From IMG/VR virus record IMGVR_UViG_2563366910_000001: 40,977 nt of DNA, one strand, 5' to 3'. The notes beneath the pieces were generated by a model. That model saw only the letters and a list, made by a program, of their open reading frames with translations, made no database searches and was not told where the DNA came from. Both the position numbers and the translations under genes were made by a program. Every line of letters starts with the position of its first letter. Positions within the stretch are counted from its first letter, which is position 1. Origin of the DNA: a virus. Lineage: Duplodnaviria; Heunggongvirae; Uroviricota; Caudoviricetes. Of the stretch, positions 34,801 through 40,977 are shown piece by piece.

Positions 34801-37800
34801 ATGGGTAAAGGCAGCAGTAAGGGGCATACCCCGCGCGAAGCGAAGGACAACCTGAAATCATCCCAGATGCTGAGCGTGATAGACGCCATCAGCGAAGGGC
34901 CGGTTGAAGGTCCGGTGGATGGATTAAAAAGCGTGCTGCTGAACAGTACGCCGGTGCTGGACAGTGAGGGGAATACCAATATATTCGGCGTCACGGTGGT
35001 GTTCCGGGCCGGTGAGCAGGAGCAGACACCGCCGGAGGGATTTGAATCCTCCGGCTCCGAGACGGTGCTCGGTACAGAAGTGAAATATGACACGCCGATC
35101 ACCCGGACCATCACGTCGGCAAACATTGACCGTCTGCGTTTTACTTTCGGCGTGCAGGCACTGGTGGAAACCACCTCAAAGGGGGACAGGAATCCATCGG
35201 AAGTCCGCCTGCTGGTTCAGATTCAACGTAACGGTGGCTGGGTGACGGAAAAAGACATCACCATTAAGGGCAAAACCACGTCGCAGTATCTGGCCTCGGT
35301 GGTGGTGGATAACCTGCCGCCGCGCCCGTTTAATATCCGGATGCGCAGGATGACGCCGGACAGCACCACAGACCAGTTGCAGAACAAAACGCTCTGGTCG
35401 TCATACACCGAAATCATCGATGTGAAACAGTGCTACCCGAACACGGCACTGGTCGGCGTACAGGTGGACTCGGAGCAGTTCGGCAGCCAGCAGGTGAGCC
35501 GTAATTATCATCTTCGCGGGCGCATTCTGCAGGTGCCGTCGAACTATAACCCGCAGACGCGGCAATACAGCGGTATCTGGGACGGAACGTTTAAGCCAGC
35601 ATACAGCAACAACATGGCCTGGTGTCTGTGGGATATGCTGACCCATCCGCGCTACGGCATGGGGAAACGTCTTGGTGCGGCAGATGTGGATAAATGGGCG
35701 CTGTATGTCATCGGCCAGAATTGCGACCAGTCAGTGCCGGACGGCTTTGGCGGCACGGAGCCGCGCATCACCTGTAATGCGTACCTGACCACACAGCGCA
35801 AGGCGTGGGATGTGCTCAGTGATTTTTGCTCGGCGATGCGCTGTATGCCGGTATGGAACGGGCAGACGCTGACATTCGTGCAGGACCGACCGTCGGATAA
35901 GGTGTGGACCTATAACCGCAGTAATGTGGTGATGCCGGATGATGGCGCGCCGTTCCGCTACAGCTTCAGCGCCCTGAAAGACCGCCATAATGCCGTTGAG
36001 GTGAACTGGATTGACCCGGATAACGGCTGGGAGACGGCGACAGAGCTTGTGGAGGACACGCAGGCCATTGCCCGTTACGGTCGTAACGTCACGAAGATGG
36101 ATGCCTTTGGCTGTACCAGCCGGGGGCAGGCACACCGCGCCGGGCTGTGGCTGATTAAAACGGAGCTGCTGGAAACGCAGACCGTGGACTTCAGCGTGGG
36201 TGCAGAAGGGCTTCGCCATGTACCGGGCGATGTCATTGAAATCTGTGATGATGACTATGCGGGGATCAGCATCGGCGGGCGCGTGCTGGCGGTGAACAAC
36301 CAGACGCGGACACTGACGCTCGACCGTGAAATCACGCTGCCATCCTCCGGCACCACGCTGATAAGCCTGGCTGACGGACAGGGGAATCCGGTCAGCGTGG
36401 AGGTCCAGTCCGTCACCGACGGCGTGAAGGTAAAAGTGAGCCGTGTTCCTGACGGCGTTGCAGAATACAGCGTGTGGGGGCTGAAGTTGCCAACGTTGCG
36501 CCAGCGCCTGTTCCGCTGTGTGAGTATCCGTGAGAACGATGACGGCACGTATGCCATCACTGCCGTGCAGCATGTACCGGAAAAAGAGGCCATCGTGGAT
36601 AACGGGGCGCACTTTGACGGCGACCAGAGCGGCACGGTGAATGGTGTCACGCCGCCAGCGGTGCAGCACCTGACTGCCGAAGTCACCGCAGACAGCGGGG
36701 AATATCAGGTGCTGGCGCGCTGGGACACGCCGAAGGTGGTGAAGGGGGTGAGCTTTATGCTTCGCCTGACCGTGGCAGCGGATGACGGCAGTGAGCGGCT
36801 GGTCAGCACGGCCCGGACGACGGAAACCACATACCGCTTCAGGCAACTGGCGCTGGGGAACTACAGGCTGACAGTCCGGGCGGTAAATGCGTGGGGGCAG
36901 CAGGGCGATCCGGCATCGGTATCGTTCCGGATTGCCGCACCGGCAGCGCCGTCGCAGATTGAGCTGACACCGGGGTATTTTCAGATAACCGCCACGCCGC
37001 ATCTTGCGGTTTATGATCCGACGGTACAGTTTGAGTTCTGGTTCTCGGAAAAGCGGATTGCGGATATCAGGCAGGTTGAAACCACAGCACGCTATCTTGG
37101 CACGGCGCTGTACTGGATAGCCGCCAGTATCAATATCAAACCGGGCCATGATTATTATTTTTACATCCGCAGTGTGAACACCGTTGGCAAATCGGCATTT
37201 GTGGAGGCTGTTGGCCAGCCGAGTGATGATGCATCCGGCTATCTGAATTTTTTCAAAGGAGAGATAGGGAAAACCCATCTGGCTCAGGAGTTGTGGACGC
37301 AGATTGATAACGGTCAGCTTGCGCCTGACCTGGCTGAAATCAGGACGTCCATTACGGGTGTCAGCAATGAAATCACGCAGACCGTCAATAAGAAACTGGA
37401 AGACCAGAGTGCAGCGATCCAGCAGATACAGAAGGTTCAGGTTGATACAAATAATAACCTGAACAGCATGTGGGCTGTGAAGCTGCAGCAGATGCAGGAC
37501 GGACGCCTTTATATCGCGGGTATTGGTGCCGGTGTTGAGAATACTCCTGACGGTATGCAGAGTCAGGTGCTGCTGGCGGCGGACAGGATTGCGATGATTA
37601 ATCCTGCGAATGGCAACACAAAGCCGATGTTTGTTGGGCAGGGCGATCAGATATTCATGAACGAAGTGTTCCTGAAATATCTGACGGCTCCCACCATTAC
37701 CAGCGGTGGCAATCCCCCAACGTTTTCACTGACACCTGATGGTCGACTTTCTGCGAAAAATGCGGATATCAGCGGTAACGTGAACGCGAACTCCGGGACG

Positions 37801-38277
37801 CTCAACAACGTCACGATTAATCAGAACTGTCGGATTCTGGGAAAACTGTCAGCTAACCAGATTGAAGGTGATATTGTCAAAACGGTGGGAAAAGCCTTTC
37901 CGAGAAATGGCAGTTATGCCAGCGGTACAATAACGGTCACTGTGTACGATGACCAGGCTTTTGACCGTCAGATAGTAGTCCCCCCCGTTCTGTTTCGTGG
38001 GGGTAAGCATGAAAACTTCAACAGCAACAACCAACAGTCATACTGGTATTCAACCTGTAAGCTGCAGGTACTGAAGAACGGACAGGAAATCTTTCAGCAA
38101 CCCGCGACGGATGTCAGCAGGGTATTTTCATCAGTCATTGATATGCCTGCCGGACACGGCCATGTCACCCTGACTTTCAATGTTTCTTCATATGGTGCTA
38201 ATAACTGGACGCCAACGACCAGTATCAGCGACCTTCTTGTTGTTGTGATGAAGAAATCTACAGCCGGTATCAGTTGA
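34801..38277 (+). CDS. J: Central tail fibre / host specificity protein J
   Basis: 1158-aa ORF. The N-terminal ~900 aa closely follow recalled lambda J; the C-terminal ~250 aa differ. Confidence 0.95.
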
Positions 38278-38295: not shown

Positions 38296-38324
38296 GGGCG
38301 CCAGAAATGGCGCCTTTTTTATTT
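38296..38324 (+). terminator. Rho-independent terminator after J
   Basis: GGGCGCC-agaaat-GGCGCC hairpin followed by TTTTTTATTT, 19 nt after the J stop. Confidence 0.6.
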
Positions 38325-38335
38325 GTGGAGTGAAT

Positions 38336-40396
38336 ATGGCAGTACAGATTTCAGGCGTGCTGAAAGACGGTGCAGGAAAACCGATACAGAACTGCACCAT
38401 TCAGCTCAAAGCAAAACGTAACAGCACCACGGTTGTGGTGAACACGGTGGCCTCAGAAAATCCGGATGAAGCCGGACGTTACAGCATGGATGTCGAGTAT
38501 GGCCAGTACAGCGTTATCCTGCTGGTTGAAGGTTTTCCGCCTTCACATGCCGGGGCCATCACCGTGTATGAGGATTCTAAGCCGGGGACATTGAATGATT
38601 TTCTGGGCGCTGCAACAGAAGATGATGTTCGTCCGGAGGCACTGTATCGTTTTGAAAAGATGGTGGAAGAGGTGGCACGCAACGCTGAAGCCGCCTCTCA
38701 GAGCGCAGCGGCAGCAAAGAAATCAGAAACAGCAGCGGCATCGTCCAGGAATGCGGCGAAAACATCAGAGACGAATGCAGGTAACAGCGCGAAAGCGGCA
38801 GCTTCTTCAAAAACAGCCGCACAAAACGCAGCAACAGCGGCAGAACGTTCAGAGACAAATGCCCGTGCGTCAGAAGAAGCCTCCGCAGACAGTGAAGAGG
38901 CTTCCCGCCGTAATGCAGAGTCAGCCGCTGAAAATGCCGGAGTCGCCACCACAAAAGCGCGGGAGGCCGCAGCAGACGCAACAAAGGCCGGGCAGAAAAA
39001 GGATGAGGCTCTGTCGGCAGCGACACGGGCTGAAAAGGCGGCAGACCGCGCAGAAGTCGCAGCGGAAGTGACTGCAGAGCCCTATGCGAATATAGTGCCG
39101 CCGCTGCCTGATGTGTGGATACCGTTTAACGATTCACTGGATATGATTGCGGGTTTTTCTCCGGGCTATAAAAAAATAGCTATTGGTGACGATGTGGTTC
39201 AGGTCGCCAGTGATAAACAGGTTAATTTCAGTCGCGCATCAACGGCAACATATATCAACAAATCTGGCGAACTGAAAACGGCGGAAATTAATGAGCCGCG
39301 ATTTGAGTGTGATGGCCTGCTTATTGAGGGACAAAGAACGAACTACATGCTCAATTCGGAAAGTCCAGCCAGCTGGGGGAAGTCATCAAACATGGATGTG
39401 CCCGAAACCGGGACAGATAGTTTTGGTTTTACTTATGGAAAGTTTGTCTGCAACGATTCTCTGGTTGGGCAAACTTCGGCTATTAATATGGCATCAATTG
39501 CTGCAACAAAGTCAGTTGATGTCTCAGGCGATAACAAGTACGTGACAACCTCATGCCGTTTTAAAACAGAACGACAGGTAAGGTTACGTATACGGTTTGA
39601 TAAGTATGATGGTAGTGCAACAACTTTTCTTGGCGATGCGTACATTGATACGCAAACGCTTGAAATTAATATGACAGGTGGGGCTGCCGGCAGAATTACG
39701 GCACGAGTCAGGAAGGATAAGACCACAGGCTGGATTTTTGCAGAGGCAACGATTCAGGCAATTGATGGTGAGTTAAAAATAGGCTCTCAGATACAGTATT
39801 CTCCTGAGCGGGGTGGGGCAACAGTATCTGGTGACTATATTTATCTTGCCACCCCACAAGTAGAGAATGGGCCGTGTGTATCATCATTTATTATTTCAGG
39901 AGGCAGCGCAACGACAAGAGCCAGTGATTTGGTTAGTATCCCCACCAGAAATAATCTTTATAAGTTACCATTTACTTTTTTACTTGAGATTCATAAAAAC
40001 TGGGATATTGCACCAAACGCCGCACCCCGCGTGTGGGATATAGCAGCAGCCAATACCGGGCAATCAGCAATTGCAGCAATCAACAGAGGTAGTGGTAAGT
40101 TATATATGAGTCTGTCAAACCCTTCAGGCTTGTATGTTAATAGCGCAGCGACAGATGTATTTGCAGAGAAAACCACATTTGGATGTATTGCAAAAGCTGA
40201 TGGTCACTTTCATGTGGTGACAAATGGTAAAGCGGTTAATGAAGTTTATTGTGAATATAATGGTGTGACCGCTGATAAAAATATCCGATTTGGAGGGCAG
40301 ACGAATACTGGAGAACGACATCTGTTTGGCCATATTCGCAATTTCCGCATATGGCATAAAGAATTAAATGACAGGCAATTAAAAGAGGTCGTATGA
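38336..40396 (+). CDS. stf: Side tail fibre protein (Stf-like N-terminus, lectin-like C-terminal domain)
   Basis: ATG at 38336 with GGAG 5 nt upstream. The N-terminal ~100 aa match recalled lambda Stf (ISGVLKDGAGKPIQNCTIQLKAKRNSTTVVVNT...), then an Ala/Ser/Glu-rich repeat shaft. The C-terminal region ends ...FGHIRNFRIWHKELNDRQLKEV, resembling the terminal motif of concanavalin-A/LamG-like jelly-roll domains. Confidence 0.8.
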   Translation: MAVQISGVLKDGAGKPIQNCTIQLKAKRNSTTVVVNTVASENPDEAGRYSMDVEYGQYSVILLVEGFPPSHAGAITVYEDSKPGTLNDFLGAATEDDVRPEALYRFEKMVEEVARNAEAASQSAAAAKKSETAAASSRNAAKTSETNAGNSAKAAASSKTAAQNAATAAERSETNARASEEASADSEEASRRNAESAAENAGVATTKAREAAADATKAGQKKDEALSAATRAEKAADRAEVAAEVTAEPYANIVPPLPDVWIPFNDSLDMIAGFSPGYKKIAIGDDVVQVASDKQVNFSRASTATYINKSGELKTAEINEPRFECDGLLIEGQRTNYMLNSESPASWGKSSNMDVPETGTDSFGFTYGKFVCNDSLVGQTSAINMASIAATKSVDVSGDNKYVTTSCRFKTERQVRLRIRFDKYDGSATTFLGDAYIDTQTLEINMTGGAAGRITARVRKDKTTGWIFAEATIQAIDGELKIGSQIQYSPERGGATVSGDYIYLATPQVENGPCVSSFIISGGSATTRASDLVSIPTRNNLYKLPFTFLLEIHKNWDIAPNAAPRVWDIAAANTGQSAIAAINRGSGKLYMSLSNPSGLYVNSAATDVFAEKTTFGCIAKADGHFHVVTNGKAVNEVYCEYNGVTADKNIRFGGQTNTGERHLFGHIRNFRIWHKELNDRQLKEVV

Positions 40397-40671
40397 AAGA
40401 TTTAACTTTGAAGTTTCATGACAAACTGCAGTTTAAGGCCTTCCTGTCATCTCTTGACTGGGAGGAGGATGAAGACCTCCAGAATAAACTGTTAGTCGAT
40501 GAAATTGGTTTCACCTACACAGAAACAGGGGTAACAGAAGAGGGAGAACCTGTCTGTGTCCGGAATGACGGTTATTTTGTCAACATTCGCATTCTTGATG
40601 ACTTGTTTGATGTTTCTGTATTCTCTGATTATGTCGTGGAGCTGGAAACACCGCTTCGGGAATGGAGCTGA
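40393..40671 (+). CDS. Hypothetical acidic protein (92 aa), translationally coupled to the tail fibre gene
   Basis: ATG overlaps the stf stop (ATGA). Acidic protein with no recognised motif; occupies the position where a tail fibre assembly chaperone (Tfa) is usually found but is shorter and unlike Tfa as recalled. Confidence 0.45.
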   Translation: MKDLTLKFHDKLQFKAFLSSLDWEEDEDLQNKLLVDEIGFTYTETGVTEEGEPVCVRNDGYFVNIRILDDLFDVSVFSDYVVELETPLREWS

Positions 40672-40683
40672 AAGGAGGAAATA

Positions 40684-40977
40684 ATGGATATAAGCCCCTT
40701 ACTTCATGCGCTTTGTGCTGTGGCTGCGCAGATACTGGTTGGTCTTTTTACCGGAAACTGGGCTTACGGAGCGATAGCCGGTTGTACGTTCTTCATTGCG
40801 CGTGAACATACCCAGGCAGAATATCGCTGGATTGAAATGTTCGGGCATGGCAAGCGAATGAATATGCCGTGGTGGGGCGGTTTTGATCCGCGAGCTTGGG
40901 ATGTGGCAAGCCTGATGGATTTTGCTGTGCCGGTGGTGGCGTGTCTGCTGGTCTGGCTGTTGGTTAATCGTGGGTGA
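40684..40977 (+). CDS. Hypothetical small membrane protein (97 aa)
   Basis: Complete ORF (stop at 40975-40977) with GGAGG 4 nt upstream of the ATG and two predicted hydrophobic helices (LCAVAAQILVGLF; FAVPVVACLLVWLLV). Confidence 0.4.
   Translation: MDISPLLHALCAVAAQILVGLFTGNWAYGAIAGCTFFIAREHTQAEYRWIEMFGHGKRMNMPWWGGFDPRAWDVASLMDFAVPVVACLLVWLLVNRG

What the first reader, a model, noticed from the sequence alone, without database searches (positions are those of the whole stretch)
39100..40977. Side tail fibre with lectin-like C-terminus followed by two unassigned small ORFs in the usual Tfa position
The fibre has a lambda Stf-like N-terminal anchor and a repeat shaft, but its distal part ends in a jelly-roll/LamG-like motif (…RHLFGHIRNFRIWHKELNDRQLKEV). 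In place of a canonical tail fibre assembly chaperone there is a translationally coupled 92-aa acidic protein and a 97-aa two-helix membrane protein, neither of which I can assign. These could be a new fibre chaperone plus a membrane-located immunity or exclusion factor, or moron cargo at the tail-fibre recombination hotspot.
Basis: partly seen in the sequence, partly recalled or inferred. Interest (0 to 1): 0.55.

Follow-up and report, generated by a model that had tools for sequence, protein, structure and literature searches.

The report
Lectin-tipped tail fibre cassette with partners
The end of this E. coli prophage carries the phage 21 side-tail-fibre module: a sugar-binding-type fibre tip, a small acidic protein that accompanies that tip in every phage examined and probably helps build or cap it, and a separate, widespread small membrane protein of unknown role.

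Summary
Window 38336-40396 encodes a 686-aa side tail fibre. An ATGA overlap couples it to a 92-aa acidic protein, and a 97-aa membrane protein follows 12 nt later. The stretch is 100% identical to phage 21 (OL657228), where both small genes are annotated without function.

The fibre has three parts: a lambda-Stf anchor (PF08400), an Ala-rich shaft, and a ~450-aa transferable tip. The tip combines a domain homologous to the RcGTA head-spike fibre with a terminal LamG/ConA-like domain.

The 92-aa protein (phrog_1361) is not a Tfa. It follows this tip in every phage lineage inspected: lambdoid, P2-like, phage-plasmid, T1-, T5-, rV5-like, Dhillonvirus and Nonagvirus. It stays under purifying selection even where no distal fibre is encoded. 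At the equivalent rV5 locus, a fibre with an S74 self-chaperoning tip has no small gene after it. It is therefore most likely the tip's dedicated assembly or capping partner, and possibly the docking site for an optional distal fibre.

The 97-aa protein (phrog_1443) is an independent, strongly conserved small membrane protein. It sits directly after receptor-binding genes of temperate phages of all three morphotypes. It was absent from the listed virulent carriers of the tip. Its function is unknown; an envelope-directed accessory role is inferred.

The module is common and the fibre type is already described, so novelty is moderate.

The parts
38296..38315 (+). Terminator-like hairpin between J and the fibre gene
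   Evidence: One search found this site at L001 5967-5986 (window = L001 + 32329). It is annotated as a terminator in phage 21. The fibre operon would be reached by antiterminated late transcription; this step is inferred.
38336..38740 (+). Side tail fibre, N-terminal anchor (about aa 1-135)
   Evidence: PF08400 phage_tail_N matches residues 3-133 with E 9.8e-69. The block is 96-100% identical in other lambdoid fibres and unrelated in T1/T5-like fibres.
38741..39037 (+). Ala-rich repeat/coiled-coil shaft (about aa 136-234)
   Evidence: The low-complexity A/S/E/K-rich repeats are visible in the translation. This block varies between phages.
39038..40396 (+). Transferable fibre tip (about aa 235-686): neck, GTA-head-spike-fibre-like domain and terminal LamG/ConA-like domain
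   Evidence: The same ~450 aa is fused to P2-H (PF12571) and PF03406 anchors, with junctions at p21 residues 235/236. NF048003 matches residues 331-531 at 55 bits against a cutoff of 36. PDB 6tb9 Rcc01080 matches with E 6.5e-10. PF13385 matches residues 562-683. Blocks 351-525 and 576-650 are variable; 251-350, 526-575 and 651-686 are conserved.
40393..40671 (+). 92-aa acidic fibre-tip partner (phrog_1361)
   Evidence: ATGA overlap with the fibre stop. phrog_1361 matches with E 8e-42. The gene lies next to a tail-fibre gene in all 60 listed of 145 phage records and follows the tip in all 85 informative loci. Diverged homologs follow the tip in rV5-like and Lindwurm-type phages. The AF2 model has pLDDT 90 with no convincing solved relative. 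dN/dS is about 0.3.
40684..40977 (+). 97-aa small membrane protein (phrog_1443; named 'Ybl63' in one source)
   Evidence: phrog_1443 matches with E 2e-58. The family has 577 clusters at 90% identity and 428 at 50%. The conserved core is AREHTQAEYRWI...G.GKR.NMPWWGGFD. The gene sits immediately after receptor-binding genes in lambdoid, P22-like, P2/HP1-like and phiHAP-1 phages.

Best explanation
Window ~39038-40977 is a mobile receptor-binding cassette grafted onto a lambda-type Stf anchor and shaft. Four claims follow, marked for what is shown and what is inferred.

(1) The fibre tip is a non-enzymatic, lectin-type adhesin. It has two beta-rich modules: one homologous to the capsule-binding RcGTA head-spike fibre, and a terminal LamG/ConA-like jelly roll. 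Their variable blocks (aa 351-525 and 576-650) set glycan (O-antigen or capsule) specificity. The homology is shown; the ligand is inferred.

(2) The 92-aa acidic protein is translated by coupling to the fibre. It is the tip's dedicated partner and plays the role that Tfa (in trans) or an S74 domain (in cis) plays for other tips. It would help the tip fold or trimerise, or cap it, by binding the tip's conserved parts. Where a distal fibre gene follows, it probably also forms or stabilises the joint that receives that fibre's conserved N-terminal ~26-aa peptide. The linkage is shown; the mechanism is inferred.

(3) In this prophage no distal fibre is encoded, so the fibre ends in its own lectin domains.

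(4) The 97-aa protein is a separate element. It is a strongly conserved small inner-membrane protein whose conserved His/Glu/Asp/Trp-rich loop is predicted to face the periplasm. It travels with receptor-binding genes of temperate phages and most likely acts on the host envelope rather than on fibre assembly. Possible roles are exclusion of incoming phage or another envelope change. This last step is weak inference.
For: Identity and genes:
- The stretch is 100% identical to phage 21 and ev017, with both small genes annotated as hypothetical.

Tip:
- Domain matches are PF08400, NF048003, PDB 6tb9 Rcc01080 and PF13385.
- The Rcc01080 head-spike fibre binds capsular polysaccharide experimentally (PMC10218006).
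- IrisVonRoten Gp22 is 47% identical over aa 131-686. BASEL describes it as a proximal fibre with a galectin-like C-terminal domain that carries the distal Gp24 (PMC11990801).

92-aa protein:
- The tip and 92-aa gene occur together on lambdoid, P2-like, phage-plasmid, T1-, T5-, rV5-like, Dhillonvirus and Nonagvirus backbones.
- All 85 loci with a 92-aa homolog carry the tip directly upstream. All 82 loci with no distal-fibre motif and enough downstream sequence, 77 of them IMG/VR prophage loci, read tip->92->97.
- The 92-aa gene is under purifying selection in two lineages that lack a distal fibre. Within groups dN/dS is about 0.3; between groups pN is 0.24 and pS 0.88.
- The 92-aa protein stays 91-100% identical while the tip varies from 35 to 100%. 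Any contact must therefore be with conserved tip segments.
- Allelic swaps: at the equivalent locus rV5 gp41 ends in Peptidase_S74 with no small ORF after it, whereas CarlMeissner has this tip plus a 110-aa homolog. A P2-like prophage has H-anchor+tip->92->97 followed by a 74-aa Caudo_TAP remnant.
- In the phage-plasmid the distal fibre brings its own full Caudo_TAP. The 92-aa protein is therefore not that fibre's chaperone.
- Distal fibres share the motif M[AV]T.T.IP.DI..LK. A search with IrisVonRoten's first 50 residues matched this N-terminal part only in records from groups that carry the cassette. In DT57C only residues 27-50 matched, under ltfA.

97-aa protein:
- It overlaps or abuts the upstream tailspike, tail fibre or Tfa gene in four unrelated phages.
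- None of the 60 listed records (of 75) is a T1/T5/Dhillon/Nonag/rV5-type phage.
- Identity is about 60% between E. coli, Aeromonas and Comamonas members.
Against: - There is no experimental or structural evidence that the 92-aa protein binds the fibre. No complex prediction could be run. The monomer tip model was poor (pLDDT 49.5).
- The conserved N-terminal motif of distal fibres suggests a structural adaptor as easily as a chaperone.
- RcapMu and RcGTA carry the spike-fibre domain without the LamG end. No 92-aa homolog follows the RcapMu gene, so the partnership may concern only the LamG end.
- For the 97-aa protein there is no match in PADLOC, Pfam, NCBIfam or PDB and no promoter-like site upstream. 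Its coupling to late genes argues for lytic-phase rather than prophage expression.
- The 97-aa family also occurs in a non-phage chromosomal context and in jumbo Aeromonas phages.
Confidence: 0.6

Rival explanations
1. The 92-aa protein is only a structural adaptor that joins a distal fibre to the proximal fibre. In phage 21-type prophages, which lack a distal fibre, it would be a leftover without current function.
For: In IrisVonRoten, tonn, KarlBarth, KarlJaspers, JenP1, Lindwurm, HannyBb and a phage-plasmid, the gene after the 92-aa gene is a distal fibre with a shared N-terminal motif. A search with IrisVonRoten's first 50 residues matched the N-terminal part only in records from groups that carry the cassette.
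Against: The gene is kept under purifying selection in at least two diverged prophage lineages with no distal fibre (pN 0.24, pS 0.88). It is also kept in rV5-like myoviruses and a P2-like prophage where no motif-bearing fibre follows. All 82 loci with no distal-fibre motif and enough downstream sequence, 77 of them IMG/VR prophage loci, keep an intact copy.
Confidence: 0.2
2. The 97-aa protein is moron-type cargo expressed from the prophage. It would be a superinfection-exclusion or lysogenic-conversion factor that merely accumulates at the recombination hotspot downstream of receptor-binding genes.
For: It occupies the classic cargo positions. These are after the tailspike and before int in a P22-like phage, after the fibre genes in P2/HP1-like prophages, and at the edge of the lambdoid b region next to sitABCD. 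The comparison with known cargo sites (P2 Z/fun, P22 gtrABC) rests on my own knowledge. Its carriers among the listed E. coli phage records are lambdoid or P22-like temperate phages, apart from a few partial matches. It does not co-vary with receptor-binding type.
Against: It is translationally coupled (ATGA or adjacent) to the upstream late gene in four unrelated phages. No promoter-like site lies upstream in phage 21 and no terminator-like site was found just downstream. It matches no defence or exclusion model. It is also present in jumbo Aeromonas phages.
Confidence: 0.35
3. The 97-aa protein works in the lytic cycle together with receptor-binding proteins. For example, it might alter envelope or glycan synthesis late in infection so that progeny are not trapped on debris, or it might modulate lysis.
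For: It shows consistent translational coupling to fibre, tailspike or Tfa genes in sipho-, podo- and myovirus genomes. It was co-transferred with the tip and 92-aa gene into a P2-like prophage. Its conserved polar loop is predicted to be periplasmic.
Against: It is absent from the listed virulent phages that use the same tip. It also occurs in non-phage contexts. No similarity to holins or other lysis proteins was found in Pfam.
Confidence: 0.2
4. Both small ORFs are unrelated filler or annotation artefacts.
For: Neither has a Pfam or NCBIfam match.
Against: Both match PHROG families with very low E-values. Both have dN/dS well below 1 and strong ribosome-binding or coupling signals. Each exact sequence is seen on at least 1000 contigs. 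The 92-aa protein gives a confident AF2 fold.
Confidence: 0.02

Closest known systems
IrisVonRoten (Bas32, T5-like) lateral tail fibre Gp22-Gp23-Gp24 (BASEL collection, PMC11990801)
   Same: Gp22 shares the whole tip (47% identity over aa 131-686), including the terminal RHLFGHIRNFRIWHKELTD motif. Gp23 is a 92-aa homolog (49% identity) coupled to Gp22 in the same way.
   Different: IrisVonRoten has a T5-type anchor and encodes a 574-aa T-shaped distal receptor-binding protein after Gp23. The window has a lambda-Stf anchor, no distal fibre, and the 97-aa membrane gene instead. The BASEL text does not discuss the small protein's role.
Lambda Stf/Tfa, P2 H/G and Mu S/U fibre-chaperone pairs (Caudo_TAP, PF02413)
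   Same: Gene order is a fibre followed at once by a small partner that moves with the fibre's C-terminus. The anchor is the same PF08400 domain as lambda Stf.
   Different: The 92-aa protein has no Caudo_TAP match. Its fold gave only weak, generic matches among solved structures. The tip is a lectin-like jelly roll rather than a Tfa-dependent tip. A P2-like prophage with this cassette retains only a 74-aa Tfa remnant.
RcGTA head spike fibre Rcc01080 (GhsB; PDB 6TB9; NF048003)
   Same: Fibre residues about 299-545 align with chain residues 44-285 (E 6.5e-10). That protein binds capsular polysaccharide (PMC10218006).
   Different: Rcc01080 is a capsid-vertex decoration present as a single subunit per spike (PMC7296036), not a tail fibre. 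By the extent of the match it lacks the LamG-like terminal domain. Its neighbouring genes were not examined here; the related RcapMu tail protein is the last gene before attR, with no small gene after it.
Alteromonas phage V22/A5 tail fibre with cognate small chaperone 'caps' (PMC10579305)
   Same: A fibre plus a small cognate partner is shared as one module between morphologically unrelated phages. The partner is proposed to act as a transient cap.
   Different: No sequence relationship was found or tested. Chaperone dependence there is shown experimentally; here it is only inferred.
DT57C LtfA/LtfB branched lateral fibres (PMC4728585)
   Same: A proximal fibre carries a second fibre that is attached through that fibre's N-terminus.
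   Different: Both DT57C proteins end in S74 self-chaperoning domains. In a search with IrisVonRoten's distal-fibre N-terminus, only residues 27-50 matched DT57C, under ltfA, and the cassette's N-terminal ~26-aa motif did not. The DT57C paper describes two ltf genes and no small partner.

Membership tests
Lambda-type side tail fibre (Stf) | N-terminal 'prophage tail fibre N-terminal' anchor domain (PF08400) | tested here: met
   E 9.8e-69, 230 bits against a cutoff of 26.6, residues 3-133.
Lambda-type side tail fibre (Stf) | Gene lies downstream of J in a lambda-like tail operon | tested here: met
   H, M, L, K, I, J and then the fibre in phage 21. The J-like ORF is at 34801-38277 in the window.
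Lambda-type side tail fibre (Stf) | Tfa (Caudo_TAP) chaperone gene immediately downstream | tested here: not met
   The 92-aa protein has no PF02413 hit at E<=1. No Tfa is annotated in the phage 21 stretch from the end of H to int shown.
GTA head-spike-fibre domain proteins (NF048003) | Match to the NCBIfam domain model above its cutoff | tested here: met
   55.3 bits against a cutoff of 36, residues 331-531. PDB 6tb9_F3 matches with E 6.5e-10.
LamG / ConA-like lectin domain (PF13385 Laminin_G_3) | Match to the Pfam model at gathering score | tested here: inconclusive
   23.9 bits in the full protein and 27.3 bits for the isolated domain, against a cutoff of 27.6. 8 of 11 homologous tips hit it (best E 8.6e-7). 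The database lists PF13385 for two homologs.
LamG / ConA-like lectin domain (PF13385 Laminin_G_3) | Beta-sandwich jelly-roll fold | tested here: inconclusive
   The AF2 tip model is all-beta but of low confidence (pLDDT 49.5). BASEL reports a galectin-like domain in the AlphaFold model of homologous Gp22.
LamG / ConA-like lectin domain (PF13385 Laminin_G_3) | Carbohydrate binding | not testable with these tools
   Needs glycan arrays or adsorption assays.
Self-chaperoning fibre tips (Peptidase_S74 intramolecular chaperone) | C-terminal PF13884 domain with autocleavage motif | tested here: not met
   No PF13884 hit in the fibre.
Tail fibre assembly chaperones (functional class) for the 92-aa protein | Gene directly follows and is co-inherited with the fibre C-terminus it serves | tested here: met
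Tail fibre assembly chaperones (functional class) for the 92-aa protein | Required for folding or trimerisation of the fibre, with physical binding to the tip | not testable with these tools
   No complex prediction or experiment was available.
PHROG families 1361 and 1443 | Full-length profile match | tested here: met
   phrog_1361 matches with E 8e-42 (residues 1-91 of 92). phrog_1443 matches with E 2e-58 (residues 1-96 of 97). Both are labelled 'unknown function'.
Known superinfection-exclusion or defence proteins, for the 97-aa protein | Match to a PADLOC, Pfam or NCBIfam model of such a system | tested here: not met
   No hits. The best PDB sequence hit has E 0.28.
Holins | Small protein with 2-3 transmembrane segments in a lysis cassette, or a holin Pfam match | tested here: not met
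   No holin Pfam hit. The gene lies after the fibre genes, with no lysis gene annotated in the surrounding stretch.

The most novel reading that the evidence does not exclude
Two undescribed protein families may be hiding in a classic phage. First, the 92-aa protein would be a new, structurally unrelated class of tail-fibre partner that both matures a lectin-type tip and forms a universal socket. Interchangeable distal fibres bearing the M[AV]T.T.IP.DI..LK peptide would plug into it across sipho- and myoviruses. Second, the 97-aa protein would be a conserved periplasm-facing small membrane effector, possibly metal-dependent given its invariant His/Glu/Asp cluster. Phages would co-express it with their glycan-binding receptor proteins to disable a conserved step of envelope-polysaccharide or DNA-uptake biology.
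Probability: 0.2. Interest if true: 0.7.

Novelty: new variant of a known kind. Interest (0 to 1): 0.45.

Why it matters
Tail-fibre engineering for phage therapy and for phage-derived delivery particles depends on knowing which helper genes must travel with a receptor-binding tip. This lectin-type tip is widespread: 2637 protein clusters, 228 phage records and a large number of E. coli prophages. If its 92-aa neighbour is an obligatory partner, or the socket for add-on distal fibres, then chimeric fibres must include it. The conserved distal-fibre peptide would also give a natural plug-and-play joint.

The 97-aa family is one of the more widespread uncharacterised small membrane proteins linked to phage receptor-binding genes. 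Its function could reveal a new exclusion or envelope-manipulation mechanism. Both questions can be tested directly in phage 21, a tractable classic lambdoid phage.

Tried and rejected
- AF2 model of the 434-aa tip from a shallow 15-sequence alignment. Mean pLDDT was 49.5, so it was not used for fold search.
- BFVD search. It returned only uncharacterised proteins of uncultured phages.
- The afdb50 library was unavailable.
- A profile of the LamG-like domain against PDB sequences found nothing significant.
- Pfam scan of 10 distant 97-aa relatives found nothing.
- PADLOC gave no hits.
- The promoter and terminator scan gave nothing above shuffled expectation near the small genes.
- rV5 virion proteomics was consulted to see whether the small partner is a virion protein. 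rV5 itself carries a different fibre allele without the partner, so the data do not address this.
- The DT57C LtfA/LtfB literature describes a different (S74/phiEco32-type) branched fibre and does not explain the 92-aa protein.
- The Nature 2024 Stf-chimera paper does not mention these genes.
- I considered and rejected the idea that the 92-aa protein co-varies with the variable, receptor-specific parts of the tip. It stays 91-100% identical while tip identity falls to 35-44%.
- Cross-group dN/dS values for the 97-aa gene were discarded because my coordinates were out of frame for one group.
Full report
**What is there.**
The last 2.6 kb of the window holds three co-directional ORFs.
- A fibre gene at 38330/38336-40396.
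- A 92-aa ORF at 40393-40671, whose ATG overlaps the fibre's TGA as ATGA.
- A 97-aa ORF at 40684-40977, which lies 12 nt further on behind AAAGGAGG.

The stretch is 100% identical to Escherichia phage 21 (OL657228) and ev017. In phage 21 the genes are annotated 'side tail fiber', 'hypothetical protein' and 'putative membrane protein'. The genome announcement says nothing further about them (PMC9119081).

The rest of the window is a PhiR57_1/ev017-like prophage written from int to this module. In phage 21 the module is followed, on the other strand, by sitDCBA and then attP/int. The window simply stops at the stop codon of the 97-aa gene.

The 92-aa protein is acidic (pI 4.1). The 97-aa protein has hydrophobic stretches at about 1-39 and 71-97 around a polar loop.

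**The fibre.**
Residues 3-133 are the lambda-Stf anchor PF08400 (E 1e-68). An Ala-rich shaft follows.

From about residue 235 the protein is a transferable tip. The same ~450 residues are joined at that point to a P2-H anchor (PF12571) and to a PF03406 anchor in other E. coli elements. T5-, T1-, Dhillonvirus-, Nonagvirus- and rV5-type fibres carry it at 37-58% identity.

Residues 331-531 match NCBIfam NF048003 above its cutoff. Residues about 299-545 align with the RcGTA head-spike fibre Rcc01080 in PDB 6TB9 (E 6.5e-10). That protein binds capsular polysaccharide (PMC10218006).

The last ~125 residues match Laminin_G_3 at Pfam's threshold, as do 8 of 11 homologous tips. BASEL's AlphaFold model of the homologous IrisVonRoten Gp22 shows a 'galectin-like domain' at this end (PMC11990801). 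My own AF2 model of the tip was too poor to use.

Block-wise comparison shows conserved segments at 251-350, 526-575 and 651-686. The variable blocks are 351-525 and, most strongly, 576-650. This is the pattern expected of two ligand-binding surfaces on a conserved scaffold.

**The 92-aa protein.**
It belongs to phrog_1361 (unknown function). It has no Caudo_TAP or other Pfam or NCBIfam match.

Its genomic behaviour is more informative.
- tblastn finds it in 145 phage records. In all 60 listed rows it lies next to a tail-fibre gene.
- A profile also recognises the more diverged small ORFs that follow tip-bearing fibres in rV5-like CarlMeissner and T5-like Lindwurm (51-58 bits).
- In all 85 loci with a 92-aa homolog, the tip lies directly upstream.
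- It stays 91-100% identical while the tip drops to 35-44% identity. It therefore cannot be reading the variable, receptor-specific parts of the tip.

Swaps at equivalent positions are telling.
- rV5 gp41 ends in a self-chaperoning S74 domain and has no small ORF after it. CarlMeissner has this tip plus the partner at the same locus.
- A P2-like prophage has H-anchor+tip->92->97 and only a 74-aa remnant of its Tfa.
- The stretch of phage 21 from H to int has no annotated Tfa.

The tip and the 92-aa gene therefore move as a unit and take the place of other tip-plus-chaperone solutions.

**The distal fibre twist.**
In many carriers the gene after the 92-aa gene is a second fibre of quite variable body. 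These carriers are IrisVonRoten, Lindwurm, tonn, KarlJaspers, KarlBarth, JenP1, the temperate HannyBb and a phage-plasmid. All these second fibres share an N-terminus of the form M[AV]T.T.IP.DI..LK.

A search with IrisVonRoten's first 50 residues matched this N-terminal part only in records from groups that carry the cassette. In DT57C only residues 27-50 matched, under ltfA. In the phage-plasmid the distal fibre is followed by its own full Tfa.

BASEL interprets Gp24 as docking on Gp22. The 92-aa protein could be part of that joint.

It is not merely an adaptor, however. All 82 loci with no distal-fibre motif and enough downstream sequence read tip->92->97; 77 of these are IMG/VR prophage loci. 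Two such lineages have diverged to 63% identity with pN 0.24 against a saturated pS of 0.88. Within lineages dN/dS is about 0.3.

I therefore favour a dedicated tip partner, either an assembly factor or a cap, that may double as a docking element. I hold the adaptor-only view at about 0.2.

**The 97-aa protein.**
It belongs to phrog_1443. The family has 577 clusters at 90% identity and 428 at 50%. All listed members are short (about 60-150 aa) and stand alone, with no extra domains. None has a Pfam, PADLOC, NCBIfam or PDB match.

The core AREHTQAEYRWI..G.GKR.NMPWWGGFD..W...S..D...P is nearly invariant from E. coli to Aeromonas and Comamonas. In many members the C-terminal tail after the last hydrophobic stretch carries Arg or Lys. 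By the positive-inside rule this places the conserved loop in the periplasm; this is inference.

The family is independent of the tip. Homologs sit directly after several other kinds of receptor-binding gene:
- a P22-like tailspike (JEP4);
- a Tfa in phiHAP-1;
- HP1/P2-like fibres in Aeromonas salmonicida and Leclercia;
- one small ORF after a giant GpJ in Comamonas.

In four of these the start overlaps or abuts the upstream stop.

The family also occurs in a non-phage chromosomal locus and in a TA/IS region. No T1/T5/Dhillon/Nonag/rV5-type phage appears among the 60 listed hits.

If it were needed for fibre assembly, the virulent carriers of the tip should have it. So a host-directed role is more likely.

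Its positions are classic cargo sites. But coupling to late genes and the lack of a promoter-like site leave open whether it acts in lysogens or late in infection. I cannot go further than 'envelope-directed accessory protein, possibly exclusion'.

**Comparison and novelty.**
The fibre type is known and catalogued. The module is extremely common, with each exact small-protein sequence seen on at least 1000 contigs. What has not been described is the obligate tip-partner relationship, the shared distal-fibre docking peptide, and the cross-morphotype association of the 97-aa family with receptor-binding genes. None of this was in the annotation or in the papers I could search.

I rate this a new variant of a known kind (a fibre with a cognate helper) plus an unexplained accessory gene. 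It is of moderate interest and directly testable in phage 21.

Noticed in passing
window 40977 (end); L001 8740-12189: The window ends exactly on the stop codon of the 97-aa gene. Many IMG/VR prophage calls end at the same point, 309 nt after the 92-aa match. In phage 21 and its relatives the element continues with sitDCBA (a Mn/Fe ABC transporter) on the opposite strand and then attP/int. The prophage boundary used for this window is therefore probably set too early.
   Followed up: partly
L003 6017-8433 (Lambda_4C10; also 4A7, 1W, 3W): An insertion annotated as three 'mobile element protein' genes interrupts the 3' end of the fibre gene. It removes about the last 45 residues, including the conserved LamG terminal strands, and displaces the 92- and 97-aa genes by 2.6 kb. 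These records are deposited as phage genomes, so they look like natural fibre-tip knockouts.
   Followed up: partly
L106 4001-6836 (E. coli P2-like prophage, GCA_031791655.1): The whole tip->92->97 cassette (86%, 90% and 81% identity to the window) is grafted onto a P2 gpH anchor. A 74-aa Caudo_TAP remnant lies just downstream. This looks like a recent replacement of the H-G tip/chaperone pair.
   Followed up: yes
L108 4001-7732 (E. coli contig with IncFII RepA, GCA_030073565.1): A myovirus-type element on a contig that also carries an IncFII RepA gene has a PF03406 anchor plus this tip, then a 92-aa homolog. A 346-aa distal fibre (Gp34_trimer) with the shared N-terminal motif follows, and then that fibre's own full-length Tfa.
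   Followed up: yes
L096 vs rV5 genes 40-41 (PMC3606486 Table S3): Vequintaviruses differ at one lateral-fibre locus. rV5 gp41 ends in Peptidase_S74 with no small ORF after it. CarlMeissner, JeffSchatz and LL12 carry the lectin-type tip plus a 110-aa homolog of the 92-aa protein.
   Followed up: yes
window 38821-38834 (minus strand): The phage 21 annotation marks a CII-binding-site pattern (TTGC-N6-TTGT) inside the fibre gene on the opposite strand. It is only a pattern match, and no function was tested.
   Followed up: no
window 35731-37278 (minus strand): A 515-aa ORF runs antisense inside the J gene. It is Arg/Pro/His-rich and is most likely a spurious antisense reading frame rather than a gene.
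   Followed up: no
L012 6001-6309 (Aeromonas rivipollensis chromosome): A 102-aa member of the 97-aa family lies alone between a pirin gene and a RIO1-kinase gene, with lipid A acyltransferase genes nearby and no phage genes in 12 kb. The family is therefore not strictly phage-borne.
   Followed up: partly
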